Source: a virus
Lineage: Duplodnaviria; Caudoviricetes
Strand: one strand, 5' to 3'
Length of the DNA stretch: 45,736 bases
IMG/VR virus record: IMGVR_UViG_3300012940_000041
Location: 1 to 45,736 of that record
This document shows, piece by piece, positions 1 through 43,448 of this stretch (its first letter is position 1; each line of letters starts with the position of its first letter). The position numbers and the translations under genes were made by a program. The notes under the pieces were generated by a model. It was not told the DNA's origin. It ran no database searches and worked only from the letters and a program-made list of their open reading frames with translations.

Positions 1-193
1 ACTCCTCCAGCCTCGCCGCGTTGTGGATGGCCGTCTCGCTCGGCTGTGCTGTCGCTTGCGTCGAATTCGACCACTTCCAGACAGAAGGCGTTTCGAGCGT
101 GAGTTTTTGCATGGGCTGTGCTGTCGCTACCGGCTGCTGCGCTTTGGCGAGCAGGGTTTCCGGTTGTGTGGATGGATTCTTGTCGCTGCTCAT
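1..193 (-). CDS. Hypothetical phage early protein (partial, runs off the window)
   Basis: ATG at 193 overlaps the stop of the HNH gene; open to base 1 (MSSDKNPSTQPETLL...). Confidence 0.5.
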   Translation of the reverse strand, partial: MSSDKNPSTQPETLLAKAQQPVATAQPMQKLTLETPSVWKWSNSTQATAQPSETAIHNAARLEE

Positions 194-828
194 GGGTTGC
201 CCCCGGCATTGCTGCCTTTTCCGAATAATCTTTCTGCCGCCGCTCGATATGCAGCATGGGCTTCCTCTTTCGTGGCGAATGTCCCTAGCGTGATCGCCTT
301 CGAATTTGCTCGGATCTGCGCCTGCCACCTGTTGCCGCGCTGGTAAACACCCCTCAGACCTGACTTCTTGTTGTTGCGATATGCCTTCTCTGGCCCTACC
401 GCCGTTTTCTGCTTGTACGCCTGGTCGTGCAGTCGTTGGCAGGTGTGACATATCCGCCAGCCGTCTTCTGTGCCAATTACATTGCTCCCAGAGAGTTCAT
501 GACCGCGCTTGCAATGCGTCTTTTTAGCGTTTTGGGCGGTCGGCCCTATGCCACGGAGGGTGTTCTCTTTCGGAGTTACCGGCTCCAAGTGCTTGACGTT
601 GCAGCAGGCGCGGTTGCGGCAGAGATGGTCCAGCACTAGACCTTTCGGGACAGGGCCGTTGGCGGTTGTCCACGCAAGGACGTGCGCGCCTATTGACCTT
701 CCTTTGACGCTCACTCGACCATAGCCCTGTGCGGTGATGTGCCCGGCCCACGGCTCGCAGGGCGTTTCCATCCATGCGGGCCGCTCGTCCGTTACCGCTT
801 GCTGCGGCTGATTGTTATTCATAGTCAT
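190..828 (-). CDS. HNH homing endonuclease with C-terminal AP2 domain
   Basis: LDHLCRNRACCNVKHL HNH motif, THCKRGH and C..C zinc segment, SGLRGV..W.AQI..LGTF.T.EEA..AY AP2 motif; start placed at MTMNNN. Confidence 0.85.
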   Translation of the reverse strand: MTMNNNQPQQAVTDERPAWMETPCEPWAGHITAQGYGRVSVKGRSIGAHVLAWTTANGPVPKGLVLDHLCRNRACCNVKHLEPVTPKENTLRGIGPTAQNAKKTHCKRGHELSGSNVIGTEDGWRICHTCQRLHDQAYKQKTAVGPEKAYRNNKKSGLRGVYQRGNRWQAQIRANSKAITLGTFATKEEAHAAYRAAAERLFGKGSNAGGNP

Positions 829-934
829 TGTCTTGTCCCTTCTTCCAGTCGTCCGCAAGCTCGCACAGTGCCCACACAATCAGTGCGATGCAGAGCATGA
901 TCAGGATTGCTGCGATAGCGTGGGCGGAGGGCAT
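815..934 (-). CDS. Small membrane protein (39 aa)
   Basis: MPSAHAIAAILIMLCIALIVWALCELADDW..., one TM helix, abuts the gp157 stop. Confidence 0.55.
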   Translation of the reverse strand: MPSAHAIAAILIMLCIALIVWALCELADDWKKGQDNDYE

Positions 935-4019: not shown

Positions 4020-4823
4020 CTACGCTAGGTCACTGATATATAGCTTTGCGATCTCCCCGTCCTCGTCAATCTCGGCTTTCGCTTTGAATGCGAGGGGCTG
4101 CTGGCTGGCTAAAGCCAGAGCATATGGGTTGTTCGGGATGACGCGGATGGGATCCGTGATCTCGGCCTGGATGCGCTGATCGCTATCTCCAATCGAAACC
4201 TTGCAGCCGCCGGTCTTTGTGTCGAGTTCAGAAATCACCCCCGTATATACGCGGGTTTGCTCGAACTGCGTGACTGCCTGCTGGGCGAAAAAAGCCTTAT
4301 CTTCGCTATCGAGATTTACGAATTTCCGACCTCCTGAGTACAAGTCGATCTTTCCGCAAGTTTTTTCGATTGGAGCGGTTGCCAGGCGCGCAGACGGTCG
4401 CAGAGCATCCGCCATCTTATCGATGGTGGCGATTAACTTCTCTGTCTGCTGCGCGTTGTTGGCTAGCGCCTTGTCCAACGCGTCCTTAAGCATTTTCATT
4501 TCTTCGCCTGATCTCCGACTCAACACATATGCTACCACTGCCGCCAGAACGGCCCCGCCGGCTCCCGACCAAAGGTTTGCGCTCGAAAGAAGGCTCTTTA
4601 GTTGCGCGATGACCTCGTAGCAATTGTGCTTGTCAGGTTCCTTGGCGACGACTTTAACGGCCAAGCTGTCAAACTGTTTGTTGTACTTCCCAGTTTCGAC
4701 GAAGTTCCCGCAGACGGCAAGAATTCTGGCGAAGCCTTGTAGCGAAAGTCCTAGCTGGTTCAGATCTAACGTGTGGCTTTCCGCGTCGCCGCCCTCGTAG
4801 CGGATGGAGATGCTTTCTTGCAT
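4020..4823 (-). CDS. Hypothetical accessory protein (267 aa; central hydrophobic helix, beta-rich C-terminus)
   Basis: AGGAG RBS before MQESISIRYEGGDA; lower GC than the phage core. Confidence 0.75.
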   Translation of the reverse strand: MQESISIRYEGGDAESHTLDLNQLGLSLQGFARILAVCGNFVETGKYNKQFDSLAVKVVAKEPDKHNCYEVIAQLKSLLSSANLWSGAGGAVLAAVVAYVLSRRSGEEMKMLKDALDKALANNAQQTEKLIATIDKMADALRPSARLATAPIEKTCGKIDLYSGGRKFVNLDSEDKAFFAQQAVTQFEQTRVYTGVISELDTKTGGCKVSIGDSDQRIQAEITDPIRVIPNNPYALALASQQPLAFKAKAEIDEDGEIAKLYISDLA

Positions 4824-4830
4824 ATGGCTC

Positions 4831-5295
4831 CTACTGTTGTTTTTTATTCTTTCCCCGCCTCCACTCCCAAGGCGGGACCGCCTCCTTATCCGCCCACAGC
4901 CCGCGCCGCTCGGTCCGGGCCCGATCCTGCAGCTCTGGTAGCGCCGGATCACGGTTATATCGCGGCTCGGCCCAAGCCATTCCACGCCGCACCTGTTCCG
5001 TGCCGACATTCACTCCGTCGCAGTAGACGTGCGCGGTGATCCGGCTCCATGATTTGCCGGTCTTCTTGTACGTGGCATCTTTACCCCAGCACAGCTCGGA
5101 TAGGGATTGGCGTGACCGGGTACCGAATGGCTGCTTCCGCTCGGGAGCGTCGATGCCGTGGATGCGGATACTCACCTCTTGCTGCTCGACCAGCAGCTTG
5201 ATCGTGTCGCCGTCCGTGATGCCGATGACTTGGTGGGCGAGGGCGTGGAGGGGGAGGGCGCAAAGCGCGGCAAATACTACGGAGGACGTTTTCAT
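4831..5295 (-). CDS. Thermonuclease (SNase) family protein with signal peptide
   Basis: DGDTI, IRIHGIDAPE, QPFG, ARTERRGLW, PPWEWRR motifs. Confidence 0.92.
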   Translation of the reverse strand: MKTSSVVFAALCALPLHALAHQVIGITDGDTIKLLVEQQEVSIRIHGIDAPERKQPFGTRSRQSLSELCWGKDATYKKTGKSWSRITAHVYCDGVNVGTEQVRRGMAWAEPRYNRDPALPELQDRARTERRGLWADKEAVPPWEWRRGKNKKQQ

Positions 5296-9484: not shown

Positions 9485-10113
9485 GTATCGCGGCCACTTC
9501 TTTGCAGGCTTACGACCAACTGCGCGTCACCTCGAACCCGTCTCTCACGATCAAGGAGAAGAAGCGCAAGTGCGCCATCTGCCGTACCGAGTTCCGCACC
9601 TTCTCCAGCCTGGTGAAGTGGTGCAGCCCGGAGCACGGCGCCGAGGTGGCGATGCGCGCGCTGGAGAAGAAGAGGGCGCGGGAGGCGAAGGAGGTGCGTC
9701 AAGCCGACCGCGCGCGCCGCGAAAAGCTCAAGACCCGCTCGGACTGGATGAAGGAGGCACAAAGTGCATTTAACGCATGGGTCAAGGAGCGCGACTTCGA
9801 TCTTCCCTGTGTTTCATGCGGCCGCCACCACAACGGCGCATATCACGCAGGGCACTACTTGAGCGTTGGCGCCAGACCGGATCTCCGTTTTGAGCCCCTT
9901 AATGTATGGAAGCAATGCGCTCCATGCAACCTGTATTTGTCCGGGAACCTGGTCCTTTACCGCCAAGAGTTGGTGCGGCGCATCGGTTTAGCGAAGGTCG
10001 AATGGCTTGAGGGGCCGCACGAGTCGAAAAAACTGACAGTAGAAGACTTGCGCGAAATAGTGAAAACGTACCGCGCCAGGGCTCGCGAAATGAAGAGGTC
10101 AAGAAATGCCTGA
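9481..10113 (+). CDS. ninG: NinG/Rap recombination nuclease
   Basis: KC.IC...F, WCSPEH, RD..LPCVSCG, AGHY.S.GA.P.LRF, QC..CN. Confidence 0.92.
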   Translation: MSIAATSLQAYDQLRVTSNPSLTIKEKKRKCAICRTEFRTFSSLVKWCSPEHGAEVAMRALEKKRAREAKEVRQADRARREKLKTRSDWMKEAQSAFNAWVKERDFDLPCVSCGRHHNGAYHAGHYLSVGARPDLRFEPLNVWKQCAPCNLYLSGNLVLYRQELVRRIGLAKVEWLEGPHESKKLTVEDLREIVKTYRARAREMKRSRNA

Positions 10114-10633
10114 GACATGGAAGCCGGTCGTGGGATATGAGGGCCTCTATGAGGTTAGCAACTTCGGTCGAGTGCGCAGCCTTGACAGGGAGGGCGTCTT
10201 TAAAGGCCGATGGGGCGAGGTCTGCATGCGATTCCCGGGAAAGGAAATGAGGATCTCGCGCGCAAGAAGCGGGTATTGCTACCTATCCCTATCAAGGGGC
10301 GCCATCTCGACCAAGCACCTCCTGCATCGACTCGTTCTTGCCGCCTTTGCTGGCCCGAGTGATCTGCAGGTGAACCACAAAAACGGAGACAAAGAAGATA
10401 ACCGTCTGGCAAACCTTGAGTACTGCACAAGCCAAGAAAACCTTCTCCATTGCACCAGGGTTCTCAAGAAAAAGATCGGCGAAGGAAATGGGTGCGCAAA
10501 GCTGAAGACTGCCGACATCCCAAAGATTCGTGCCGATTCACGTTCACTAAAAGCGATTGCTCGGGATTACGGCGTTACCCACCAAGCGATCTACTTGGTG
10601 AAAAAAGGAAAAAACTGGGGGCACGTGTCGTGA
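10106..10633 (+). CDS. NUMOD4-HNH homing endonuclease
   Basis: EtWKPVVGYEGLYEVSNFGRVRS; HRLV..AF, VNHKNGDK.DN..NLE. Confidence 0.92.
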   Translation: MPETWKPVVGYEGLYEVSNFGRVRSLDREGVFKGRWGEVCMRFPGKEMRISRARSGYCYLSLSRGAISTKHLLHRLVLAAFAGPSDLQVNHKNGDKEDNRLANLEYCTSQENLLHCTRVLKKKIGEGNGCAKLKTADIPKIRADSRSLKAIARDYGVTHQAIYLVKKGKNWGHVS

Positions 10634-13870: not shown

Positions 13871-14070
13871 AAAGCCACACGCTGGAAGAAATGATGGCCA
13901 TCCTCACGGCAGGAGGCCGGAGCTCTGGCGAGCAGAGCAGGGCGCTACCACGACATGCCTACGGCGATCCAGCAAACCACGTCGAATTCCCCGCCGAGGC
14001 CGAGCGCCGGAGAAAGTTGAGAGAAGCGAAGAAGTTGAAGAAACTGCAGTACAGAGCGAAGGGGAAATGA
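13867..14070 (+). CDS. Hypothetical protein
   Basis: Coupled ORF; YGDPA motif, basic tail. Confidence 0.6.
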   Translation: MKSHTLEEMMAILTAGGRSSGEQSRALPRHAYGDPANHVEFPAEAERRRKLREAKKLKKLQYRAKGK

Positions 14071-14612
14071 TGGAACTGTTCAAGAACGCGAACGATGCTT
14101 TGATCTTCGCATTCCGCTATTCGAGCCAGCAGTACGCGCTGTCGCCTATGGCGAAGATGATGAAGACTGGCCCCGTGGGGGGCGGCAAAGGTCTCGTTTC
14201 CCTGGATGGGGCTGGTCAAGCCGGCCTCATCCGAGGCGAGATCGATCGTATGCCTTCGCTCCGCAGGTCCTGCATCGTCGCCCGCTACTCCGTGCGGTAC
14301 GAGGATTGTCCGTGCTGCGGCGGGGAGAAGATGCTGCAGGAGTATGCCGAGGCGGTGGCGAATCTCTCCGACTGGGCCACGCAGTGGATTGCCGGCATGT
14401 CCGTCCGTGGCATGCGGCATGCCATTATCCGGGCGTACTTCGAGCGCGGTGTCTCGATCCAGGATGTGGCGAAACGGTTGAACGTGCCGAAGAGCACGGC
14501 CTACGATCAGAAAAGCGTGATCTGGGCGAAGCTCAAAGAGTTGGACGCCGAGGCGCAGCGAGAGGCGGATGACAGGCTGGAGAAACTGTGCGGAGTCGCG
14601 GTGGGATCCTGA
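14067..14612 (+). CDS. Probable late-gene antiterminator/activator (Q-like)
   Basis: CPCC zinc knuckle plus C-terminal HTH (SIQDVAKRLNVPKSTAY); last gene of the early right operon. Confidence 0.7.
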   Translation: MMELFKNANDALIFAFRYSSQQYALSPMAKMMKTGPVGGGKGLVSLDGAGQAGLIRGEIDRMPSLRRSCIVARYSVRYEDCPCCGGEKMLQEYAEAVANLSDWATQWIAGMSVRGMRHAIIRAYFERGVSIQDVAKRLNVPKSTAYDQKSVIWAKLKELDAEAQREADDRLEKLCGVAVGS

Positions 14613-14681
14613 AAAATTCCACTACAGGGGTGAAATGGTAAAAAATTCCATCACACCCCTATCTCCAAAAATTCCGCTACA
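14612..14681 (+). repeat. Three AAAAATTCCnnnACA direct repeats
   Basis: Copies at 14612, 14641 and 14667. Confidence 0.6.
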
Positions 14682-14898
14682 CCCTGTCCCGCAGCTCGAA
14701 CTCCGGATGCTGGCCAGCCAGCAGCAATAGCAGCTCATACTCGCCGACCGACAACGCGCGGGAGCTGGCGCCGGCCAGCTCTTTCTTTTTCCAGCCAGAA
14801 AGCGAATAGCCGAAACGTGCTGCGCATTCGTCCTGGTTCAGTCCGGCAGCGATACGCGCAGCGCGAACCTGATCAGGGGTCGGATTAGCATTTGTCAT
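14677..14898 (-). CDS. Aca-like XRE HTH regulator
   Basis: PTPDQVRAARIAAGLNQ HTH, 73 aa, ATGA-coupled to the acrVA2-like gene as last gene of the operon. Confidence 0.75.
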   Translation of the reverse strand: MTNANPTPDQVRAARIAAGLNQDECAARFGYSLSGWKKKELAGASSRALSVGEYELLLLLAGQHPEFELRDRV

Positions 14899-15932
14899 TT
14901 CACGGGTCGGATCGTTGCCGGCAGCCCATCCAAGCCGTCGAGTTTGACTGGAATCGGCGGCAACCAGCGCAAATCGAATTTGCGCTCCTGCGTCGGTATT
15001 TCGCTGCCGTCAGCCCGTTTCATGGGGCCGGATCGGAATCCGTGCCAGTGAGCGCGGCGGATATGCGGCCGCGGCCCGGCATGCATGTCATCACCACCTG
15101 TTTCGGCCTGCTGATATGCGGCGCGCAGTGCAGCCCCGAGGCGTACGCCGACATCCCACGTGGTTGGCCGGTCGGCCGGAAACAGTCTCCAGCCGCGCTT
15201 CGTGCGCTTCGGTTCCGGATTTGACGGCGCGCGCTTCCCGTCGCCGATCTCCGCATTCTGCGAGCAGAGATACAGCAGTAGGGACACCATCGGCTCGACA
15301 TGACTTCTGATCTCTGACGTCAGCCCGGCCGGCGGCGCCCCGATCCCGGCAGCGATTGCATTGATTGACGCGACGTCGACCATGCGCGCGATCGATTCTC
15401 GCAGCGACCACGGGCCCAGGTGCACCGGGATCGGCAGCAGCATGGATTCGGCGTCGATCAACAGCCGCAGCTCAGGCCGGCCGCTGCCGGCGTCGTGCTC
15501 CAGGTGTGCAAAAAATCCGTGGACATCGTCCCCTGCCACCTGCATACCTGGCGTCTCGATGTACACGCACCATTCCGGCAGCCTGAACAGGATCTCGTGC
15601 GGCACATCGCCATCAACAGGGGTTTTGATGATCTCGGCATAGACCGCCGGGTCGAATCGATAGATGCCCTGCGTGACACGCCAGGCAGCCAGGGCGCCGA
15701 GGCGCCCTACGTCGGCCGCGCGATCGAGCGGGACGCGATTGTCGCCGCCACCACTGACAATCGCGTAGGACGCGGCCAGCGGCAGGTAGCACCAGTCCGG
15801 CCAGTGCGGCAGGTCCTGGCCGCGCCCGGCGCGGAATTCGTCGGCGGCTTTCCACGCGCCGAGGTAAAGTTTGGCAGCGGCGACCAAGTGATCGCGCGGG
15901 CGGCAGGGGCGTTTGTCGAACTGGGGTTTCAT
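14895..15932 (-). CDS. acrVA2: AcrVA2/FinQ-family anti-CRISPR protein
   Basis: AWRVTQGIYRFD, LPEWCVYIE, LLLYLC and RPHIRRAHWHGF match the recalled AcrVA2 motifs (AWR.T.GIY, LPDWCVY, LLWLC, RPHIRRGHWHGY). Confidence 0.82.
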   Translation of the reverse strand: MKPQFDKRPCRPRDHLVAAAKLYLGAWKAADEFRAGRGQDLPHWPDWCYLPLAASYAIVSGGGDNRVPLDRAADVGRLGALAAWRVTQGIYRFDPAVYAEIIKTPVDGDVPHEILFRLPEWCVYIETPGMQVAGDDVHGFFAHLEHDAGSGRPELRLLIDAESMLLPIPVHLGPWSLRESIARMVDVASINAIAAGIGAPPAGLTSEIRSHVEPMVSLLLYLCSQNAEIGDGKRAPSNPEPKRTKRGWRLFPADRPTTWDVGVRLGAALRAAYQQAETGGDDMHAGPRPHIRRAHWHGFRSGPMKRADGSEIPTQERKFDLRWLPPIPVKLDGLDGLPATIRPVK

Positions 15933-15954
15933 TTGCTATCGGGCGAATCTCTCG

Positions 15955-16722
15955 TCAAAGTGGCATAACTGGTTCGGTTTTGGGCATTGCTGGGATGCTC
16001 GCAGAAATGCGGCGACCATCAATTGTCATAAGCGACAAAGAGGGGTTCTCAATATACAAATAGTGGTGTGTTGAATTGGGGGTGCCACTCTGAATGACGA
16101 ACGGCTCGTCGTCATAGGGCACTACGCACCAGCTCAGCGGCGAACTGTGGATGCCGAACTCGCGCACTTTTATCCCGCTGTTGCCGTATGTTTTTATCCC
16201 CTTGGTATCGTTGAGCCACCAAGCGCCGTGGCGATGCCAAGCGATCATGCGCTTGCCGAGAAGTTTGGAAGTGTCCCAGTGGTGGCGGTGTAAGAGTTTC
16301 CCGCCCGTGAATATGACTTCTAGCCCGTCTTCCATGATGAACCCGTCGCGGGTTAGCACTTCGCGGGGCGGGACAAGCGGCGCGAACGTTCTGCGTTTGA
16401 TGGCGGCGGACATGAAAGCGGAGTAAGCTGCCTCTGTCCATCCGCGTAACTCCAGCGCATCCACAAGGCGTGGAGAGCGGACCCATTGCTGCTGTTCGAT
16501 GTCCCAATATCCTTCTGGGAACATTGATAACTGTGAATCGGAGAGTTCTGGAAACTGCGCGGGGCCTTGCCGCTTCCATTGATCCGGCTGATGCCACCAG
16601 TCGTTACCGCGAACGACGAACTGATCGAAATAGACACGGGTGAAGTTTTGGGCATTACGCGGCAGCCAGGGCTTGCCGCCCATCATCACGTGATAGAAGA
16701 GCGGATGATCGCGTTTCCACAT
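15955..16722 (-). CDS. Hypothetical protein, candidate anti-defence factor (255 aa, Trp-rich)
   Basis: Long ORF inside the acr operon; lower GC. Confidence 0.7.
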   Translation of the reverse strand: MWKRDHPLFYHVMMGGKPWLPRNAQNFTRVYFDQFVVRGNDWWHQPDQWKRQGPAQFPELSDSQLSMFPEGYWDIEQQQWVRSPRLVDALELRGWTEAAYSAFMSAAIKRRTFAPLVPPREVLTRDGFIMEDGLEVIFTGGKLLHRHHWDTSKLLGKRMIAWHRHGAWWLNDTKGIKTYGNSGIKVREFGIHSSPLSWCVVPYDDEPFVIQSGTPNSTHHYLYIENPSLSLMTIDGRRISASIPAMPKTEPVMPL

Positions 16723-16727
16723 CGTTG

Positions 16728-17036
16728 TTAGCTGTAGATGTAGGTGTCTTCGTCATCGTCCAGATGCTGGCGTGACGCACGCACTTCAGCCCAATATTGC
16801 TTCAGCGCTTCGCGGTCGATGTCGATCTTGCCGTCAGCGTTCAGAATGATGAAATCGGGGTTTTCGTCGAGGACATTGCCGAAGGTGTCATCGCCGGCCG
16901 TCAGATCGTCGAGATTCGCAACCGGGAATTTGCGAGTGTCAGTTTGATCCCAGCCGCAATCCTCAAGGTCTACACCGTAGACGGTGTGGCCGGAGCTCGT
17001 GACTTTGTTGGACTTCCAAGCTGCAATGTAGATCAT
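16728..17036 (-). CDS. Small acidic protein, candidate anti-CRISPR
   Basis: 102 aa, 22 D/E versus 9 K/R; AAGGA RBS; first gene after a strong promoter. Confidence 0.75.
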   Translation of the reverse strand: MIYIAAWKSNKVTSSGHTVYGVDLEDCGWDQTDTRKFPVANLDDLTAGDDTFGNVLDENPDFIILNADGKIDIDREALKQYWAEVRASRQHLDDDEDTYIYS

Positions 17037-17108
17037 GATTATTTCCTTTTGAAATTTCTCCGGCTACTCACCACCGGCTGGTGTATCAGCGTTGCGCCGA
17101 TGAAGATA

Positions 17109-17136
17109 ATTATATACGCACAAAATAAGAATGCAA
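17109..17136 (-). promoter_or_regulatory. Promoter of the acr operon with operator
   Basis: TTGCAT-16-TATAAT; near copy of the 19694-19721 promoter. Confidence 0.75.
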
Positions 17137-17141
17137 GGAAT

Positions 17142-17507
17142 TTATCCGCGAGTTGCTGCCAATGCTTGGCGGATACCCTCAGACATATTGCCGTTGCCGA
17201 GCTTTGCTGCCCGCGCCAGGCTCTCGTCATCGAGATACAAGCTTACGCGCCGCCCGCCGACGGTCTTTGGCCGGCCGGCGTTGTTGCTGATGCCAAGCGC
17301 CGCTTTGACGCGCCGCTGGTCGAGCGATGTCACCGCGCCTGCATTGACCATCACGTAGACGCCGGCCTCGGTGCGGGCCAACGCGCCTGTGCGATCGCCC
17401 TGCGAGACGGTCCCGAGCATTTCAGTGCCGGGAGTCGTGTGCTGCGTGTAGAGCCGCCAGTTGCCGGACAAATCGACAGCGAGGCGGTGCCGGTTGTCGT
17501 GACCCAT
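17142..17507 (-). CDS. Protein with C-terminal ribbon-helix-helix domain
   Basis: GRPK...RRVSLYLDDESLARAAKLGNGNMSEGIRQAL; start codon uncertain. Confidence 0.7.
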   Translation of the reverse strand: MGHDNRHRLAVDLSGNWRLYTQHTTPGTEMLGTVSQGDRTGALARTEAGVYVMVNAGAVTSLDQRRVKAALGISNNAGRPKTVGGRRVSLYLDDESLARAAKLGNGNMSEGIRQALAATRG

Positions 17508-17515
17508 GATAATAT
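17507..17515 (+). promoter_or_regulatory. Extended -10 promoter upstream of the solitary repeat
   Basis: TG-A-TAATAT; +1 at ~17522. Confidence 0.5.
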
Positions 17516-17524
17516 TCCCGTGCT

Positions 17525-17552
17525 GTTCGCCCTTCGGGGCGCGGATTGAAAC
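17525..17552 (+). CRISPR. Solitary type I-C-like CRISPR repeat unit
   Basis: GTTCGCCCTTCGGGGCGCGGATTGAAAC: GT start, CGCCC/GGGCG hairpin, GGATTGAAAC 3' end; single copy. Confidence 0.65.
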
Positions 17553-17616
17553 CAAGATTGGGTGGGAAACCCGTTGACATCCTCCCCGGCCTAAAGGCCG
17601 GAGATTCCTACGGCGC

Positions 17617-18840
17617 TCAGTGGAGGCATTGAGCCGCCCCTGAGTCGCTTCGGTGGGTTCCTGCTGCTGGCGGCATTACTGCACCGCTCACTTCACAGGC
17701 GAACCGGGCGTGCCCCGCCCTTAAAACATTGATCGCGCCAACCACGTCGGCGTTTTCCTCGAAGCCGCATTCCACGCACTCGAACTGGGCTTGTGTCTGG
17801 CGGTTGTCCGCTGACACATGGCCGCAGCACGGGCAGGTGCGGCTGGTGTTCTGCGGCGGCACGGCAATGAGCCGGCCGCCCGTCCATGCCAGCTTGTAGT
17901 CCAATTGGCGGCGGAACTCAAACCAGCCTTGATCGAGGATGGACTTGTTCAGGCCGGACTTAGCCCGAACGTTTTTCCCCGGCGTTTCGGTGCTGCCTGC
18001 CGCCGACCTGGACATGTTCCGAACCTGCAAGTCCTCGATACACACCATCGCGTGGTTTTGGCTGATCGCGGTCGAGGTCTTGTGTAGGAAGTCGCGGCGG
18101 GCGTTGCCGATACGGGAGTGAATGCGCTGGACTCGGGCTTTAGCCTTCTTCCAGTTGTTGCTGAATTTGGTTTTGCGGCTCATGGCCTGCTGCGCTTTGC
18201 GCAGGGCCGTTTCATGCTGCTTGAAGCTGTTGAGCGGCGCGTAGAACGTGCCGTCCGAGAGTGTGGCGAAGCGGATCACGCCCATGTCGATACCCACTGC
18301 TGTGGTGGCCTGCGGCACGGCCTGCTCAACTTCGCGCTCGGTCTGGATGCTTACGAACCACTTGCCGCCCGACAGGCTCACGGTAACGTTCTTGACCGTA
18401 CCCAGCACCTTCCGACTATTGCGGTAGCGCAGCCATCCCAGCTTTGGCAGGAAGATACGACTGTTGCCCTGATCGAGCTTGATCTGCTTCGGATCGGGGT
18501 AGCGGAAGCTGTCGCCTTGGCCCTTCTTCTTGAAGCGCGGGAAGTCCGCCCGCTTGGCGAAGAAGTTGCTGTAGGCCCGCTCCAGATCCTTGAGCGCCTG
18601 TTGCAAGGGATGGACCGGCGCATCGGCCAGCCAAGCCATTTCCGCGCTGTTGCGCCACTCGGTGAGTATCTTGCACAGCCCGGCGTAGCCGAGCTTTTTC
18701 TCGCCCTGCTCGTAGCGCTCTTTCTGCAACGCCAACGCCTTGTTGAACACGAACCGGCAGGAGCCAGCGAAACGGCGTATTTGCCGCTCTTGCTGGCCGT
18801 CTGGTCGCAGTTCGTATTTGAAGGCTTGGAGGCGTCGCAT
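17617..18840 (-). CDS. tnpB: RNA-guided endonuclease TnpB
   Basis: AFKYELRP HTH, RuvC GIDMG / IEDL / NADVVGA all intact, CPCC..CVEC zinc finger. Confidence 0.96.
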   Translation of the reverse strand: MRRLQAFKYELRPDGQQERQIRRFAGSCRFVFNKALALQKERYEQGEKKLGYAGLCKILTEWRNSAEMAWLADAPVHPLQQALKDLERAYSNFFAKRADFPRFKKKGQGDSFRYPDPKQIKLDQGNSRIFLPKLGWLRYRNSRKVLGTVKNVTVSLSGGKWFVSIQTEREVEQAVPQATTAVGIDMGVIRFATLSDGTFYAPLNSFKQHETALRKAQQAMSRKTKFSNNWKKAKARVQRIHSRIGNARRDFLHKTSTAISQNHAMVCIEDLQVRNMSRSAAGSTETPGKNVRAKSGLNKSILDQGWFEFRRQLDYKLAWTGGRLIAVPPQNTSRTCPCCGHVSADNRQTQAQFECVECGFEENADVVGAINVLRAGHARFACEVSGAVMPPAAGTHRSDSGAAQCLH

Positions 18841-18861
18841 GCGGATATTATAATTTGGCCT

Positions 18862-19275
18862 ATGAGCGACGACAACGATATTAGGCATGGACGGCACTGC
18901 GTTTTTAAGATGCATGTCCATTTGGTCTTTGTGGCGAAATATCGCCGCAGAGTGTTCGATGGCCCGGCCATTGATACCCTGCGCGGCATCTTCGCCAAGG
19001 TCTGCGCCGACTTCGAGGCTAGCCTGATCGAGATGGACGGCGAGGACGATCATGTTCATCTTCTGGTTGAGTATCCGCCGAAGGTGGCGGTGTCGAATCT
19101 GGTAAACAGCCTCAAGGGCGTATCCAGCCGCCTGCTGCGCAAGGAACGGCCCGACATCCAGAAACGCTACTGGAACGGGGTACTGTGGTCGCCGTCCTAC
19201 TTCGCCTCAAGCTGTGGTGGAGCGCCGATTTCCATCGTGCGCCAGTACATCGAACAGCAGCAGACTCCACACTGA
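18862..19275 (+). CDS. tnpA: IS200/IS605 Y1 transposase
   Basis: HLVFVAKYRR, DHVHLL (HUH), KGVSSR, WSPSYF, YIEQQ. Confidence 0.97.
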   Translation: MSDDNDIRHGRHCVFKMHVHLVFVAKYRRRVFDGPAIDTLRGIFAKVCADFEASLIEMDGEDDHVHLLVEYPPKVAVSNLVNSLKGVSSRLLRKERPDIQKRYWNGVLWSPSYFASSCGGAPISIVRQYIEQQQTPH

Positions 19276-19348
19276 AGCCCAAGGACGGCTACGCCGTCCG
19301 CGCTATCCTTCCCCGCCCTGAACGGCGGGGCTTGTCGCGCACCCGGTC

Positions 19349-19380
19349 AAAAAAGGGCGCTTCGGCGCCCTTTTTGTTTT
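19349..19380. terminator. Bidirectional terminator
   Basis: AAAAAAGGGCGC-TTCG-GCGCCCTTTTT. Confidence 0.8.
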
Positions 19381-19630
19381 AGTCGGGCAGTGCGAACAAC
19401 ACTTTAGCGGTCGAGCCGAAGCGGAACGCCTCGCCATCGCGTTGTGCGGCGCGCACTGCGCTGCGCACCAAGTCAACTTTGGTCACCGCCTCGCCGAACA
19501 GATCTTGTTTGCCGAGCTGTGAGCGTTGAGACTCCGGCAGCAGGCCGAACACGATTTCTGCGACCGCTTGCTCCGCTGCCGCAGCGGTGGACTTGTTCAG
19601 GGTGACGAGGTCGGATGCGATGACGTTCAT
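19379..19630 (-). CDS. Hypothetical protein (83 aa), candidate anti-defence factor
   Basis: GGAG RBS, own strong promoter and terminator. Confidence 0.7.
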   Translation of the reverse strand: MNVIASDLVTLNKSTAAAAEQAVAEIVFGLLPESQRSQLGKQDLFGEAVTKVDLVRSAVRAAQRDGEAFRFGSTAKVLFALPD

Positions 19631-19693
19631 GGTTTTCTCCACCCCTGATTACCGCGAGGTGCCGGTTGACCGTTGTGGTCTGTTGATGTGGTA

Positions 19694-19721
19694 ATTATAT
19701 GCGCATAATTTTAGATTGCAA
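19694..19721 (-). promoter_or_regulatory. Strong leftward promoter with palindromic operator TATGCGCATA
   Basis: TTGCAA-16-TATAAT; palindrome at 19698-19707. Confidence 0.75.
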
Positions 19722-19753
19722 GAACTATTTGATGTGGCGCTTGGAATTTTTTC

Positions 19754-19781
19754 TTGCCCGGAATATTCATTCCGCTATAAT
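19754..19781 (+). promoter_or_regulatory. Late promoter (PR'-like)
   Basis: TTGCCC-16-TATAAT followed closely by a terminator. Confidence 0.7.
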
Positions 19782-20980: not shown

Positions 20981-21168
20981 CCACGACCGGCGAGATTATC
21001 GACGCTCTAGTTCGGATGGAGCGTGAAGGCGCCAGCGCACGAGAGCAGCAGCTCTACCGACAGAACTTGCAGGTGCTGGTCGAGATAGCCCGAGCGGAAG
21101 GCCGGCACCAGGCGCTGGTTGAGGTGCCGGAGGATGTGCGGCACTCGTATCGGTCTACGGTTCACTGA
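20977..21168 (+). CDS. Hypothetical protein
   Basis: Coupled on both sides. Confidence 0.6.
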   Translation: MTTTGEIIDALVRMEREGASAREQQLYRQNLQVLVEIARAEGRHQALVEVPEDVRHSYRSTVH

Positions 21169-21533
21169 TGCCAAAGCTCAAGACTATCAAGCCCCGATTG
21201 CAATCCGCGCCCATCCGTCTGGCGCAGGTCGCCCGGCCGGCTGGTACCGAGCGTATCCGCGGCAGCGCATTGCAGAAGATCAGGGACCGGATATTGCGGC
21301 GTGACTGCGGCGTGTGCCGGTGCGAGCAGTGCCTGCGCGAGGGCAGTGCACGGTTTGCGCATGAGATCGAGCACCGAGTCCCGCTGTGGGCCGGCGGTGC
21401 CGAGGATGACGACAACCGGTACGCAATCAACCGGGAGTGCCACGAGGCAAAGACTAAGTGCGAGGCGAGGATGCGGGCGGCCGGCGGGTACAACCCAGCG
21501 GCCTGCACTTGTGGCCGGCATCGGATTGAATAG
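21168..21533 (+). CDS. Terminase-associated HNH endonuclease
   Basis: ILRRDCGVC..C, EHRVPLWAGG.....N, CHEAKT; just upstream of terS. Confidence 0.88.
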   Translation: MPKLKTIKPRLQSAPIRLAQVARPAGTERIRGSALQKIRDRILRRDCGVCRCEQCLREGSARFAHEIEHRVPLWAGGAEDDDNRYAINRECHEAKTKCEARMRAAGGYNPAACTCGRHRIE

Positions 21534-23875: not shown

Positions 23876-24057
23876 ATATCAGAGTTTTCAATGTATGCCT
23901 GCTGCTCGGCTGGATCATGGTGCTGGCCGGTGGGGTGATGCTCAACCCTGGTTGGGGAGTCGCCTTTGCAGGCGGTTTGTTAATCGTCCTGACCCTCTCT
24001 GCTGCGTACATCGCAGGCTGGGAGCAGCCGAAGCGCAACAAGGAAGAGACTGACTGA
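23872..24057 (+). CDS. Small membrane protein
   Basis: Two TM helices between terL and portal, coupled. Confidence 0.7.
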   Translation: MNIRVFNVCLLLGWIMVLAGGVMLNPGWGVAFAGGLLIVLTLSAAYIAGWEQPKRNKEETD

Positions 24058-26669
24058 TGTTCATCAGCAGCATTCGATCGGAGGCGGACGACCGTTCGCC
24101 GGCTGGTCGCTTTTGGTTCGAGCCGATCGGCATGCGCACGGCTGCCGGTGTGCGAGTAACCCCGGCGTCTGCCATGGCGCTCCCGGCTGTGTTCGCGTGC
24201 GTTCGCGTACTCGCGGAATCGTTCGCGATCATGCCGTTCATGTTGTACCGCCCGAACGAAAACGGCGGCCGTGCGAAGGTGCGAAATCACTGGTTGTATC
24301 GTCTGATTGCCAAGGCACCAAACCGGTTTCAGTCGCCCTACGAGTGGCGACTGATGATGCAGGGGCATCTCGCGCTGCGCGGCAACGCGTTCAACCAAAT
24401 CACGGCGAATAGTCGAGGAGAGATTACAGAGCTACTACCGCTGCACCCGGACAGAATGTCCGTCGAAATGCTGTCGAACGGTAGCTATCGGTACGTCTAT
24501 CTCGACCAGGACGGACGTTCCATCACGTACAGCAGGCACGAAATCTGGCACCTACGGGGCATGAGTGATGACGGCCTGATGGGCATGAGCCCGATCGGCT
24601 TGGCGCGCGAAGCAATAGGCGAGGGTCTGGCGATCCAGTCCTATTCCAGCCGATTCTTCACGAATGACGCAAAGCCGGGTGGCGGATGGATCGAGTATCC
24701 CGGGTCTTTTGCGACGAACGAGGCAAAGAAAAAGTTCCGCGAGTCCTGGCAGGAGCTGCAGGGCGGATCGAACCGCGGGAAGGTCGCGGTGCTCGAGAAG
24801 GGCATGAAGTTCCATGAGCTCGGCTTGTCGAACAAAGACAGTCAGTTCATTGAGGCTCGGGGCGCAAAGGTCACCGAGATTGCCCGGATTTTCCGCGTGC
24901 CGCCGCACAAGATCATGGATCTGGCACGGTGCATGCCGGGCGACACACTCGTCTTTACCAGCACCGGGCCAAAGCCGATCGCCAGCGTGCTCCCAGGCGA
25001 GAAGGTATGGAGTCCGACTCCGACCGGGCCGAAGCTCTGCACAGTGCTGAACAACTGGTATAACGGCGTGCGCGAGACGCTGGAGATTCGCACCACGAAC
25101 CGGACAGTCCGATGCACAGCAAATCACCGACTGCTGGTGCGCCGCGCCCACGAACGCGACCTAAATCCTGGCGAAACCGGTGGGAAGAACGTCGGCGGAA
25201 AGAAGAAGCGCGTGGTTTGGCGTAATGAATATGTGATGGCGGGAGAGCTGCGCGAGGGCGATACTCTCGTGACGCTCGATCGACTGCCTAGCCAAGGCCG
25301 CACCATCTCGCCCACCGGTCGCGTTCTGACCGAGGGGTTCATGGAGTTCGCCGGTCTGCTGATGGCGGACGGCAATGTGAAGTACCAGAATGGAAAGCCA
25401 TCGCACGTGTCCATTGCGCGCGCAGACACTGCCAGTTACATGCCGCATTATCGCCATGTTATGCGCTCGGAATTCACGCGCTGTGCCACCGGTGGAATTT
25501 ACGCATCGGCGTCTCCGCTGCGAGCACCTGTTCATTTGACGGAGGGTGCGAGGTGCACGATCTTCGCGTCGGTTGAAGAGGCGGGCGCGTTGTTCAAAAT
25601 GGGATTTGCCGGGACCGCTTTCACGAAACGCATACCCGGCTGGGTGTTCGAGACGAGCGAGGATCACCGCCTCGCCTTCTTGCGCGGATTCCTTGATGGC
25701 GACGGAACCGTCGATGCGAAGGGTCGGATCACGTACTACTCCGCGAACAAGGCGCTACTGGATGACGTGCGTCATCTGTGCATGAGTGCTGGCGTTCCTG
25801 TGACGAACGTGCGGTCTGACGTGAATCGCAAACCGGCGCCAGGATCGAAGCATTTGGTGCCAACGCGGATGTGGCGCTTCACATGTTCAGATCCTGGCGC
25901 GAATGCGCGCATCGGATCCCACGACGCTCGGTACATCGAGCGCCTACAGTCTGGCAAACCGTTCGGGCGCAAGGACCGGGCTTATCCGCGATTCGGCGGA
26001 AAGAACTTCGCCGCACCAGGTCTCGCACTTTCGCGAATCATTAGCATTGAGAAGTGCCCCGCAGAAGCCGTATATGACATCGAGGTAGAGGGTGAGCACT
26101 GCTTCTTTGCCGACGGTGTTGCATCGCACAACAGCACCAACAACAACATCGAGCATCAGGGTATCGAGTTCTGGACTGACACGATGTTGCCGTGGGCGAC
26201 GCTGTGGGAATCCTCGATCGGATTCTTCCTGCTCGGTCCGGACGAGGACCTGGAGCCGGATTTTGATCACAAGCCGATGATGCGCGGCGATGGCCAGGCC
26301 AGAGCCGAACGAATCAGCAAACTTGTTACTGCGGGCGTGATGACGCGGAACGAAGGCCGGGAGGAAGAGGGGTACGACCCGATCGATGGACTGGATGAAC
26401 CGCTGCGCCCGTTGAACATGGTGAGCGAAGACGTTGCCGACGATACTGAGGATCAATCGAGCTCTGCACGGATGCGCGCGCTGCTGCACAGCAATGCGTC
26501 TCGCATGGCTCGGCGCCTCGCTGCCGGCAAGCCGGTATCTGCCGAGACGCTGGCCGACGCCTTGGCCATCAGCACCCCGTGCGCAGATTCCTGGCTTTCG
26601 CTCGACCGAACCGGCCTCACTGAAGATGAACTGACCGCCTCCCTATTGGAGCTTGGAGAAACCGCATGA
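24057..26669 (+). CDS. HK97-family portal protein containing an intein
   Basis: AVFACVRVLAES, LRGNAF, GMSPI, EIARIFRVPPH, MTRNEGR. Confidence 0.95.
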   Translation: MFISSIRSEADDRSPAGRFWFEPIGMRTAAGVRVTPASAMALPAVFACVRVLAESFAIMPFMLYRPNENGGRAKVRNHWLYRLIAKAPNRFQSPYEWRLMMQGHLALRGNAFNQITANSRGEITELLPLHPDRMSVEMLSNGSYRYVYLDQDGRSITYSRHEIWHLRGMSDDGLMGMSPIGLAREAIGEGLAIQSYSSRFFTNDAKPGGGWIEYPGSFATNEAKKKFRESWQELQGGSNRGKVAVLEKGMKFHELGLSNKDSQFIEARGAKVTEIARIFRVPPHKIMDLARCMPGDTLVFTSTGPKPIASVLPGEKVWSPTPTGPKLCTVLNNWYNGVRETLEIRTTNRTVRCTANHRLLVRRAHERDLNPGETGGKNVGGKKKRVVWRNEYVMAGELREGDTLVTLDRLPSQGRTISPTGRVLTEGFMEFAGLLMADGNVKYQNGKPSHVSIARADTASYMPHYRHVMRSEFTRCATGGIYASASPLRAPVHLTEGARCTIFASVEEAGALFKMGFAGTAFTKRIPGWVFETSEDHRLAFLRGFLDGDGTVDAKGRITYYSANKALLDDVRHLCMSAGVPVTNVRSDVNRKPAPGSKHLVPTRMWRFTCSDPGANARIGSHDARYIERLQSGKPFGRKDRAYPRFGGKNFAAPGLALSRIISIEKCPAEAVYDIEVEGEHCFFADGVASHNSTNNNIEHQGIEFWTDTMLPWATLWESSIGFFLLGPDEDLEPDFDHKPMMRGDGQARAERISKLVTAGVMTRNEGREEEGYDPIDGLDEPLRPLNMVSEDVADDTEDQSSSARMRALLHSNASRMARRLAAGKPVSAETLADALAISTPCADSWLSLDRTGLTEDELTASLLELGETA
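24930..26132 (+). mobile_element. Intein with LAGLIDADG homing endonuclease (401 aa)
   Basis: R|CMPGDT, TANHRLL block B, FAGLLMADG and FLRGFLDGDG, VYDIEV...SHN|S. Confidence 0.95.
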
Positions 26670-41435: not shown

Positions 41436-43373
41436 ATGACGATTGATACTACTAACCTTGACTCTGGCGAGGACAAGGTAAAGCTGGCTCGCGCCGCTAT
41501 TCTGGCGATGGCTGAGTGGATGAACGAAGGCGTGAGTGACGAGAAGGTCGCGCCATCGAGCAAGCTCTACAACCGCATTCATGATGTGGTGAGCGTTAGG
41601 GACTTCGGCGCTGTCGGTGATGGTGAAACCGACGACACCGAAGCAATCCAGACTGCGATTACAGCAGCAGCCAGCATGTCGCAAGGCGAGCGGCGTGCGG
41701 TATGGTTCCCTAAGGGGCTATACAAGGTTACGGGTGGATTGAGCATTCCAGACACGACCAGCCACCTCACGCTTTACGGCGAATCTTCGGAAGGGATCGG
41801 AGCATCCGCCATCTACTTTTACCACCCGGGCGATGCGTCCGTCACGGTTCTGATCGACGCCCCAATCCAGAACTTCACGATGCTGGACCTCGCTGTGCGG
41901 CAGATGAGCGAGTCTGACTACACCGCACTCGACCCCGTTACTGCGGTGCGTACCAAGAGGCCAACGACCGCCACTGCTGACACGGACACCATCATCGAGC
42001 GGTGCTGCTTCAAGCAATTCTCGAAAGGCATCGAGAATTGGGGCCGCGGACTTAAGGCAAGTTACAACGTATTCGATCAGTGTGGGGAATGCATCGAACT
42101 GGAATGGCCCGACGTCGGCGACTACGCTGCATCAGCACCTGCAATATCGCAAGACACGACGGGCTTCCGCGCGTTCCGTATCCAGAACAACCGTTTCCAC
42201 TCCATCGGCACGATTGCGGTCAAGAACTCGGGCGCGAACGCATCCAAGATTCACGCTATCGACATCAGCGGGAACATGCTCGACATTGGGCGGCGCTTGT
42301 TCGAGGGCGTATTGGTTGACGGCCAGATAGTCAACAACCAGTCGATCATGACCCCGACGAAAGTCATCGTTCTGCAAGATGGCTCGAAGAATTATGTGGT
42401 CAGTGGCCTCGTCATGGCCGGGAACACCGATGCCAGCCGCATCCCCGATTACTTCATTGAATTTACCGGCACGCACACCAACGGGCAAATCAGCAATGTC
42501 ACGATGGACAATTGCTCCATCGACGCGATCCGCGCGAGCACCGGGAGCGTACTGAATGGCGTGACGTTCAACGGCATCAGTTGCGGCACGGTAGGCAGTT
42601 CGTCGAACAACGTTATCCGGTTGGTCGGGAACAGCCATAAGGTCGCCATCAACGGGCTGACCTACTACGGCCCGCTGCTGACAGAGGCTGTGCGCGTCGA
42701 CTCTGGCTCCGTGGTGTCGGTATCGGGTTACGCCTCGTTGAATAGCGCGACGCCGCTTTCCGTTTCCGGTGCATACACGACGAAGGATGTCGTGATTAAC
42801 GGCTCGAATGTGTTTCAGAAGTTCGTTTCGCAAAGCGGGACAGAACTGGGATCGCTGACTTACGAAAACGCCGGCACGAATGGGATCACACTGGTTTCCT
42901 CTGACGGGTCGATCAATTTCAAGCCGTCAAACAATTCGGTGCGACCTTTCGATGACAACTTAACGTCGCTCGGGATGGGGTCGCGTCGTTATTCCGTGGT
43001 TTACGCAGGGACCGGCACGATTAACACCTCAGACGCGGAAGACAAGGAAGAAATCAGGGAAGTCGACGAAGCGGTGACCCGTGCCGTGCGCAAAATCAGT
43101 TTCAAGCAGTTCAAGTTCAAAGACGCCGTTGCTAGAAAGGGAGCGGCCGCGCGTACGCATGCCGGTGTGATTGCGCAGGAGGTCAAAGCTGCATTCGAGT
43201 CGGAAGGATTGGACCCGTTCGCCTGGGGAGTGCTCTGCTACGACGAGTGGCCGGAAGAACCGGAAGTGCGCGACCCGGAAACCGGCGAAGTGGTGCAGGA
43301 ATACCGTCCAGCAGGGTCGCGCTATGGAGTCCGATACGACCAGTTGCTTTGCTTGAAGCTGGCATCGATGTAG
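41436..43373 (+). CDS. Tailspike: pectate-lyase-like beta-helix + C-terminal S74 intramolecular chaperone
   Basis: VSVRDFGAVGDGETDDT; INTSD...K...HAGVIAQEV...RYGVRYDQL. Confidence 0.9.
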   Translation: MTIDTTNLDSGEDKVKLARAAILAMAEWMNEGVSDEKVAPSSKLYNRIHDVVSVRDFGAVGDGETDDTEAIQTAITAAASMSQGERRAVWFPKGLYKVTGGLSIPDTTSHLTLYGESSEGIGASAIYFYHPGDASVTVLIDAPIQNFTMLDLAVRQMSESDYTALDPVTAVRTKRPTTATADTDTIIERCCFKQFSKGIENWGRGLKASYNVFDQCGECIELEWPDVGDYAASAPAISQDTTGFRAFRIQNNRFHSIGTIAVKNSGANASKIHAIDISGNMLDIGRRLFEGVLVDGQIVNNQSIMTPTKVIVLQDGSKNYVVSGLVMAGNTDASRIPDYFIEFTGTHTNGQISNVTMDNCSIDAIRASTGSVLNGVTFNGISCGTVGSSSNNVIRLVGNSHKVAINGLTYYGPLLTEAVRVDSGSVVSVSGYASLNSATPLSVSGAYTTKDVVINGSNVFQKFVSQSGTELGSLTYENAGTNGITLVSSDGSINFKPSNNSVRPFDDNLTSLGMGSRRYSVVYAGTGTINTSDAEDKEEIREVDEAVTRAVRKISFKQFKFKDAVARKGAAARTHAGVIAQEVKAAFESEGLDPFAWGVLCYDEWPEEPEVRDPETGEVVQEYRPAGSRYGVRYDQLLCLKLASM

Positions 43374-43391
43374 CGTGGCCCAGAAGCTAGC

Positions 43392-43420
43392 TTGCGCGCT
43401 AGATTTCAATCATGTATGGT
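43392..43420 (+). promoter_or_regulatory. Putative moron promoter
   Basis: TTGCGC-17-TATGGT. Confidence 0.5.
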
Positions 43421-43448
43421 GCCGCGATTCCAGCCAGGATCGTAGCCT

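What the first reader, a model, noticed from the sequence alone, without database searches (positions are those of the whole stretch)
14677..17136. Anti-CRISPR operon: strong promoter > two unknown ORFs > acrVA2-like > aca-like HTH
Seen: a leftward four-gene operon with its own near-consensus promoter, inserted between the Q-like gene and the late promoter. The 345-aa protein shares four motif blocks with AcrVA2. Known: AcrVA2 blocks Cas12a biogenesis and is related to FinQ; acr loci typically end in a small HTH aca. Inference: this is an anti-defence locus, and its AcrVA2 homologue may target something other than Cas12a in this host.
Basis: partly seen in the sequence, partly recalled or inferred. 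Interest (0 to 1): 0.8.

Follow-up and report, generated by a model that had tools for sequence, protein, structure and literature searches.

The report
RHH-controlled phage anti-defence island with AcrVA2
This phage carries a 5-kb island of extra genes, among them a true relative of the anti-CRISPR protein AcrVA2 and a lone copy of a CRISPR repeat, behind twin promoters that a small ribbon-helix-helix protein likely represses; the AcrVA2 relative probably silences a target other than Cas12a, which would make it a handle on what this widespread protein family normally does.

Summary
The four leftward genes are real. The 345-aa protein is a true AcrVA2/FinQ-family member: E 1e-15 to PDB 7CI1, same fold, all five activity residues kept. 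The locus is larger than reported, about 5.1 kb between the Q-like gene and the late promoter. It also holds a ribbon-helix-helix (RHH) gene, an IS605, an 83-aa ORF and a twin promoter. The promoter motif tracks the RHH family, not the terminal HTH: of 11 GC-rich contigs found by the motif alone, 8 encode this RHH and none the HTH. In a relative the same promoter type drives acrIF11. A solitary type I-C CRISPR repeat (Racr candidate) lies at 17525-17552, antisense to the operon. Cas12a was found in 0 of 50 genomes carrying relatives, so another target is likely. Nothing functional was tested. Verdict: an anti-defence island of a known kind with a probably undescribed RHH-operator pair. The scan noted AcrVA2-like islands with twin promoters or an RHH gene on two other genomes.

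The parts
14067..14612 (+). Q-like antiterminator candidate, left border of the island
   Evidence: Weak Sigma70_r4/HTH hits, E 6e-5 to 3e-4, below cut-off; position after the replication and nin-type genes
14612..14684 (.). Convergent intergenic stretch with three 18-nt direct repeats and a hairpin; likely transcript end for both directions
   Evidence: Repeat family D1; fold z -2.6 and -2.9
14677..14898 (-). 73-aa XRE-type HTH; family common on enterobacterial conjugative plasmids; role here unclear
   Evidence: PDB 7XI5 E 6.8e-4; phrog_7950 E 0.0028; 4224 of 72,556 plasmid records
14895..15932 (-). 345-aa AcrVA2/FinQ-family protein
   Evidence: 7CI1 E 9.8e-16; model pLDDT 93.6, Foldseek E 2e-17, TM 0.65/0.70; FinQ E 1e-23; W84, D94, H290, R292, H295 kept
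15955..16722 (-). 255-aa protein of a rare unnamed family; predicted C-terminal SH3/KOW-like barrel
   Evidence: 7 relatives at 50-62%; 11 cluster representatives including itself at E<=0.001; no Pfam, PHROG or NCBIfam hit; model pLDDT 83.7, best Z 6.4 over 62 residues, background level
16728..17036 (-). 102-aa acidic orphan, first gene behind P1; Acr-like in size and charge only
   Evidence: 22 D+E against 9 K+R; no homologue among 3 candidates; no usable Atlas hit; SD-like AAGGA upstream
17107..17137 (-). Promoter P1 with RHH-type half-site over the -10
17142..17507 (-). 121-aa protein with a C-terminal ribbon-helix-helix; likely repressor of P1 and P2
   Evidence: RHH_1 E 0.0055, below cut-off; family beside acrVA2-like genes in 5 clear loci of 94; full-length relative in L217; N-terminal half is a separate gene in 3 Acidovorax phages
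17525..17552 (+). Solitary type I-C CRISPR repeat (Racr candidate), antisense to the operon
   Evidence: 22 fixed bases shared with arrays next to cas1c and cas2; Rfam CRISPR-DR9 21.7 bits, below gathering 45; single copy
17574..19345 (.). IS605-family element: tnpB 17617-18840 (-), tnpA 18862-19275 (+)
   Evidence: Pfam OrfB_IS605, Cas12f1-like_TNB, Y1_Tnp; right end at 17574 from loose ends of three other contigs, depth 88 against 14; left end 19343-19345 read from sequence
19349..19376 (.). Terminator-like hairpin with U-tails on both strands, between ORF83 and the IS
   Evidence: Fold z -3.05; sequence
19379..19630 (-). 83-aa unknown ORF behind P2
   Evidence: No family hit; strong SD
19692..19722 (-). 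Promoter P2, twin of P1
   Evidence: 81% identical over 31 nt; the only two exact motif matches in the window; near-identical promoter ahead of an RHH gene in L144
19754..19855 (+). Likely late promoter (TTGCCC-16-TATAAT, 19754-19781) and its terminator; right border
   Evidence: Read from sequence; hairpin z -4.5; HNH and terminase genes follow

Best explanation
The locus is a 5-kb accessory island of a lambdoid phage that likely serves counter-defence: twin promoters would fire on entry and are likely shut down by the island's RHH protein, and the AcrVA2-family protein is predicted to bind a nascent host protein other than Cas12a, most likely a defence protein, and trigger decay of its mRNA. 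Shown: gene order, twin promoters, family membership, fold, conserved residues, motif-RHH co-occurrence, the lone I-C repeat. Inferred: early expression, repression by the RHH, the mRNA-decay mechanism (by homology to AcrVA2) and the target class. ORF102, ORF255 and ORF83 would be further swappable cargo. The HTH is probably a passenger from another module or a second regulator with an unknown site. The repeat would be an RNA decoy for type I-C Cascade if transcribed from the plus strand.
For: Family: 7CI1 E 9.8e-16; the only Foldseek hits at E<=0.001 are three AcrVA2 chains. AcrVA2 residues W79/D89/H286/R288/H291, needed for activity (10.1101/2022.11.29.518452), map to W84/D94/H290/R292/H295; HxRxxH is in 119 of 119 listed homologues and 70 of 77 locus ORFs. 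Target: Cas12a in 0 of 50 genomes holding relatives, while the same search found it over cut-off in 9 of 301 control genomes; the preprint reports the same pattern. Regulator: among 94 acrVA2-like loci the motif with a full TATAAT occurs in 4, all with this RHH. Among contigs found by motif alone, 8 of 11 GC-rich ones encode it (training contig excluded) against 0 of 36 control loci, Fisher p 5e-7; HTH family 0 of 81 loci. In L005/L038 this promoter type drives acrIF11 (NF052490, 100.9 bits, cut-off 50). An RHH Aca repressing two operons is known (PMC13551039).
Against: No function was tested and the host is unknown. Over all motif contigs the RHH link is weak (8 of 77 against 0 of 36, p 0.054; 0 of 66 AT-rich contigs, likely chance matches), and the GC cut was chosen after seeing the data. 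P1 and P2 show only the -10-proximal half-site, whereas about half of the RHH contigs have a full inverted repeat. A terminator-like hairpin and an IS605 separate the RHH gene from P2, so its expression here is uncertain. Of 38 cargo and neighbour proteins scanned only 1 hit an Acr model. Most genomes searched for Cas12a are incomplete MAGs. The other characterised relative, FinQ, acts against a plasmid, not a defence system.
Confidence: 0.55

Rival explanations
1. FinQ-like conflict between mobile elements: the same mechanism is aimed at a conjugation or phage protein and works in the lysogen.
For: FinQ is in the family (556 plasmid records, 516 typed conjugative) and appears to lower F transfer mRNA (preprint). 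The HTH family is plasmid-borne. Type I-C cas5 is over cut-off in only 8 of 50 relative genomes, so neither CRISPR type tested is a general target.
Against: FinQ is only about 28% identical. The context points at CRISPR: the I-C repeat here, and acrIF11 behind the same promoter type.
Confidence: 0.2
2. One reading: a classic acr-aca operon in which the protein inhibits Cas12a and the terminal HTH represses P1.
For: Fold and activity residues are kept. The HTH is last in the operon and weakly like 7XI5 (that this entry is Aca10 is recalled, and its 65-aa length agrees with PMC9410906 Table 1). A 33%-identical HTH sits directly before acrVA2-like genes in L001/L007.
Against: Low identity to AcrVA2 (20-22% in the structural alignment); Cas12a in 0 of 50 relative genomes; E98 of the known peptide site aligns with K103 (weak, as that site is dispensable in vivo); HTH family in 0 of 81 motif loci; no plasmid-type operator in the window.
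Confidence: 0.1
3. A decaying mosaic: unrelated cargo collected at a tolerant site, with the RHH cut off by the terminator and the IS605 and the repeat a silent relic.
For: The IS605 insertion; the repeat is antisense, while 19 of 28 solitary copies elsewhere precede a sense ORF (crude test, no background); no close match to this repeat in 94 acrVA2-like loci beyond two loose ones; ORF255 relatives lie in other contexts.
Against: All reading frames are open, both promoters keep a perfect -10 and the half-site, and the activity residues are intact. Swappable cargo is normal for acr loci (PMC9410906 passages).
Confidence: 0.15

Closest known systems
AcrVA2 of Moraxella bovoculi prophage (PDB 7CI1/7CI2; 10.1101/2022.11.29.518452)
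   Same: Fold, W/D and HxRxxH activity residues, location on a mobile element
   Different: 20-22% identity in the structural alignment; none of the neighbouring ORFs hit an Acr model; relatives' genomes lack Cas12a; target unknown
[quoted passage not shown]
   Same: Same family, about 28% identity over residues 80-345
   Different: Phage-borne, in a small-gene island with twin promoters
Aca14, the RHH anti-CRISPR-associated repressor (PMC13551039)
   Same: RHH domain, motif over the -10, two neighbouring operons, link to known acr genes in relatives
   Different: RHH fused to variable N-terminal domains; GNGNxSEGIR signature; in several relatives the half-sites flank the -35 and the -10, about 20 nt apart; looks unlike Aca14 by eye, not tested by alignment
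RacrIC1 and solitary repeat units (PMC10651486)
   Same: A single type I-C repeat in a phage anti-defence region
   Different: RacrIC1 is co-transcribed with acrIC5; this copy is antisense, has a shorter stem-loop (28 nt against a 31-nt array repeat) and abuts an IS605 end
HTH Aca10 (PDB 7XI5, identification recalled) and Aca9
   Same: Small XRE-type HTH ending an operon
   Different: Only E 7e-4 to 7XI5; unlike Aca9 by eye; belongs to a plasmid family at 37-61% identity whose operator is absent here

Membership tests
AcrVA2/FinQ family | Significant sequence match to AcrVA2 | tested here: met
   E 9.8e-16 over residues 73-304; PF26125 on all 120 listed rows, one named AcrVA2 family; phrog_6160 E 1e-49. 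The local Pfam and NCBIfam scans gave no hit.
AcrVA2/FinQ family | AcrVA2 fold | tested here: met
   Model pLDDT 93.6; Foldseek E 2e-17, TM 0.65/0.70, rmsd 4.8-5.6
AcrVA2/FinQ family | Activity residues W79, D89, H286, R288, H291 | tested here: met
   W84, D94, H290, R292, H295 by the alignment (chain offset +1)
Functional AcrVA2 (anti-Cas12a) | Host encodes Cas12a | tested here: inconclusive
   Host unknown; 0 of 50 genomes with relatives; search shown to work
Functional AcrVA2 (anti-Cas12a) | Binds the Cas12a N-terminus and lowers its mRNA | not testable with these tools
   Needs plaque and qRT-PCR assays
HTH Aca (Aca1-Aca12), for the 73-aa gene | Small HTH at the end of an acr-like operon | tested here: met
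HTH Aca (Aca1-Aca12), for the 73-aa gene | Clear homology to a named Aca | tested here: inconclusive
   7XI5 E 6.8e-4 only; Aca9 compared by eye only; Aca profiles not available
HTH Aca (Aca1-Aca12), for the 73-aa gene | Its family's operator in the operon promoter | tested here: not met
   Operator read from two plasmid loci has no window match under 4 mismatches; family in 0 of 81 motif loci. Operators can diverge.
HTH Aca (Aca1-Aca12), for the 73-aa gene | Homologues next to known acr genes | tested here: inconclusive
   0 of 15 neighbours at three loci hit an Acr model; only 2 of over 4200 plasmids were opened
RHH-type Aca (Aca14-like), for the 121-aa gene | RHH domain | tested here: inconclusive
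   RHH_1 17 bits against cut-off 20.5, 1 of 5 members; DUF2239 weak in another; no solved relative; not folded
RHH-type Aca (Aca14-like), for the 121-aa gene | Conserved motif over the -10 of its own and neighbouring operons | tested here: met
   motif twice in the window and in L038, three times in L170
RHH-type Aca (Aca14-like), for the 121-aa gene | Family found with known acr genes | tested here: met
   acrIF11 in L005/L038, one element
RHH-type Aca (Aca14-like), for the 121-aa gene | Homology to Aca14 itself | not tested
   Aca14 seen only as coding DNA in a supplement; no alignment run
RHH-type Aca (Aca14-like), for the 121-aa gene | Represses the promoter | not testable with these tools
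   Needs reporter or EMSA
Racr, type I-C | Mimics a type I-C repeat (hairpin plus 11-nt handle) | tested here: met
Racr, type I-C | Solitary, near acr-type genes | tested here: met
   One copy; 1.6 kb from the acrVA2-like gene
Racr, type I-C | Transcribed in repeat sense and inhibits I-C | not testable with these tools
   Antisense to the operon; a possible extended -10 at 17507-17515 seen by eye only

The most novel reading that the evidence does not exclude
The island is a two-layer attack on type I-C CRISPR: the AcrVA2-family protein destroys the mRNA of a type I-C Cas protein as it is translated, while the lone repeat is made as a small plus-strand RNA that soaks up Cas5c/Cas7c, all under an undescribed RHH Aca family. 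This would be the first non-Cas12a defence target of the AcrVA2 family.
Probability: 0.1. Interest if true: 0.82.

Novelty: new variant of a known kind. Interest (0 to 1): 0.5.

Why it matters
AcrVA2 uses an unusual mechanism, peptide-triggered mRNA decay, and its roughly 1,800 relatives mostly live without Cas12a; their targets are an open question (10.1101/2022.11.29.518452). This copy is intact and sits beside a type I-C repeat, which gives a concrete target to test, although any of the many homologues could serve for a target screen. The RHH protein and its promoter motif appear to mark small-gene operons in several phages, one with acrIF11, and could be used as a marker for finding new anti-defence genes. 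The five literature searches were not aimed at this RHH family, so its novelty is not established.

Tried and rejected
Complex prediction of the 345-aa protein with residues 1-32 of Acidaminococcus Cas12a gave no verdict (score 0.01); it says nothing either way. No RNA holder was listed for the region. Aca9 identity for the HTH was a recalled lead, dropped after seeing the Aca9 sequence; pKM101/R46 ArdR was also dropped (no match to R46). CasPR relevance: abstract only, Bacillota proteins with other domains. ORF255: no Foldseek match at E<=0.001, only background SH3/KOW scores, no Atlas lead, no viral loci; the overlapping 161-aa frame was rejected because conservation follows the 255-aa frame. 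ORF102: no relatives by word search; no profile search was left for it. Direct search for RHH loci found none. A first Cas12a control did not ring (0 of 200). The TnpB guide seed has no second exact match in the window, and the tail behind the repeat matches only itself. No empty-site joint across the IS was seen. Relatives cannot be drawn for a virus record, so the host was not found.

Full report
Setting. The window is a whole 45,736-base virus record with lambdoid order: repressor, NinG, replication genes, Q-like gene, HNH, terminase, portal, capsid, tape measure, lysozyme. The terminase is 68-78% identical to those of Burkholderia and Bordetella phages and one unnamed phage, so a Burkholderiales host is likely (inference).

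Observation. The four leftward ORFs are present and tightly spaced. P1 has a perfect -10 and a 3-of-6 -35, and was not called by the consensus scan. The island is larger than reported. Upstream on the same strand lie a 121-aa gene, an IS605, a terminator-like hairpin, an 83-aa ORF and promoter P2, 81% identical to P1 over 31 nt. P2 sits back to back with the likely late promoter at 19754-19781.

The 345-aa protein. It matches AcrVA2 (7CI1) at E 9.8e-16 and FinQ at E 1e-23, and has 1826 hits among 8000 scored candidates. A model built on 146 rows (pLDDT 93.6) finds only AcrVA2 chains at E<=0.001. The residues whose loss weakens AcrVA2 (W79, D89, H286, R288, H291; preprint 10.1101/2022.11.29.518452, parts 1-2 of 4 read; its supplements are closed) map to W84, D94, H290, R292, H295. 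HxRxxH is in 119 of 119 listed homologues and 70 of 77 locus ORFs; the 7 misses were not examined. The 146-row alignment left out duplicates and ORFs lacking the motif, so invariance there is partly by selection. Family membership is therefore shown; anti-Cas12a activity is not.

Target. Cas12a was found in 0 of 50 genomes (50 of the 57 genome loci). The same search found it over cut-off in 9 of 301 genomes of another phylum and in 0 of 200 of a third group. Many genomes are incomplete. Type I-C cas5 passed the cut-off in 8 of those 50; without a background rate this shows no enrichment, and it argues against I-C as the family's general target. The preprint reports the same lack of Cas12a and proposes other targets. 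A 2026 review (PMC13131331, passages) lists the decay machinery as unresolved.

Who controls P1. Relatives of the 73-aa HTH lie on 4224 plasmid records. At the two opened, twin promoters carry an inverted repeat in the spacer that has no window match under 4 mismatches. The 121-aa protein ends in a weakly scoring RHH. Its family lies near acrVA2-like genes in 5 clear loci of 94, and the P1/P2 motif with a full TATAAT occurs in 4 of the 94, all of them RHH loci (L005 and L038 are one element; L037 has the RHH without the motif). As an independent test I fetched viral loci by the motif alone: 11 of 81 loci encode the RHH family, 0 of 81 the HTH family, 0 of 36 control loci either. By distinct contig, without the training contig, this is 8 of 77 (p 0.054), or 8 of 11 among GC-rich contigs (p 5e-7); 0 of 66 AT-rich ones. 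The GC cut was set after seeing the data. In L005/L038 a second copy of the promoter drives acrIF11; this was the only Acr hit among 38 proteins scanned. L217 shows promoter, 84-aa ORF and a full-length RHH relative in a row, which suggests the ancestral layout of the P2 operon; here a hairpin and the IS605 interrupt it, so RHH supply may depend on read-through (inference). An RHH repressor of two acr operons, Aca14, is described (PMC13551039; parts 1, 4, 5 of 8, passages, and part of the supplement). I could not align against it.

The repeat. Bases 17525-17552 on the plus strand form a GC hairpin followed by an 11-nt handle. The Rfam score is weak (21.7 bits, E 0.31). However, 22 fixed bases match 36 viral loci exactly, including arrays of 58 and 114 copies on one contig beside type I-C cas1 (over cut-off) and cas2; 28 of the 36 are solitary. 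The shuffle result (0 of 100) is circular, as the pattern came from the window. Solitary repeats are a known class and RacrIC1 inhibits type I-C (PMC10651486, passages). Against a role: this copy is antisense to the operon, is shorter than the array repeat, abuts the IS end, and is not a regular companion of acrVA2-like genes (two loose matches in 94 loci; none in 14 loci chosen for the RHH or its promoter). One listing-level search for both terms returned a single review.

Other cargo. ORF255 belongs to a rare unnamed family with a confident model but only background-level SH3/KOW matches. ORF102 is an acidic orphan. ORF83 has no family hit and was not searched further.

Mechanism. Most likely (0.55): both promoters fire on entry or induction; the RHH then binds the half-site over each -10; the AcrVA2 relative binds a nascent host protein and uses its HxRxxH region to bring about mRNA decay. 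Rivals are FinQ-like conflict between elements (0.2), a decaying mosaic (0.15) and a classic anti-Cas12a acr-aca operon (0.1).

Other papers seen: PMC9410906 (passages, section 18, supplement search), PMC7648647 (passages, supplement search), 10.64898/2026.02.23.707548 (abstract and outline). Earlier scan notes describe AcrVA2-like islands on two other genomes; I did not check them, and my reading of the twin promoters and the RHH was reached before that call.

Verdict. A real anti-defence-type island of a known kind, with a family member of unknown target, a probably undescribed RHH-operator pair and a Racr candidate. New variant; interest 0.5.

Noticed in passing
window 24057-26669 (+): The portal gene is 870 aa and carries intein and LAGLIDADG hits: an intein in a phage portal protein.
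   Followed up: no
window 14612-14684: Three 18-nt direct repeats and a hairpin between the Q-like stop and the HTH stop; a similar A-rich word lies just before the late promoter at 19744-19752 on the other strand.
   Followed up: partly
window 17574-19345: IS605 with intact tnpA and tnpB; the same five bases follow both the presumed left junction and the right end on the minus strand; multi-copy in run X1.
   Followed up: partly
window 190-879 (-), 10106-10633 (+), 21168-21533 (+): Three HNH genes (HNH-AP2, NUMOD4-HNH, packaging-type HNH).
   Followed up: no
window 4020-5009 (-): 329-aa DUF7946/DUF7947 protein near the repressor; possible moron.
   Followed up: no
window 41436-44204 (+): Tail spike with pectate-lyase-like and S74 chaperone domains, followed by a hexapeptide-repeat transferase before the lysozyme.
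   Followed up: no
L106-L141: 28 of 36 viral loci hold solitary type I-C repeats, often just ahead of a sense ORF, some of them structural-looking genes; one contig has two.
   Followed up: partly
L094 2931 and 4220; L095 2788 and 4209: The plasmid HTH family sits between twin promoters with a clear inverted repeat and small unknown genes: an Aca-like regulon on thousands of enterobacterial plasmids.
   Followed up: partly
L162, L170, L026, L096, L144, L168, L217: The same RHH is fused to several different N-terminal domains, and one of these domains is a stand-alone gene in Acidovorax phages.
   Followed up: partly
L002 2904 (+): A loose type I-C handle about 2 kb upstream of another acrVA2-like gene.
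   Followed up: no
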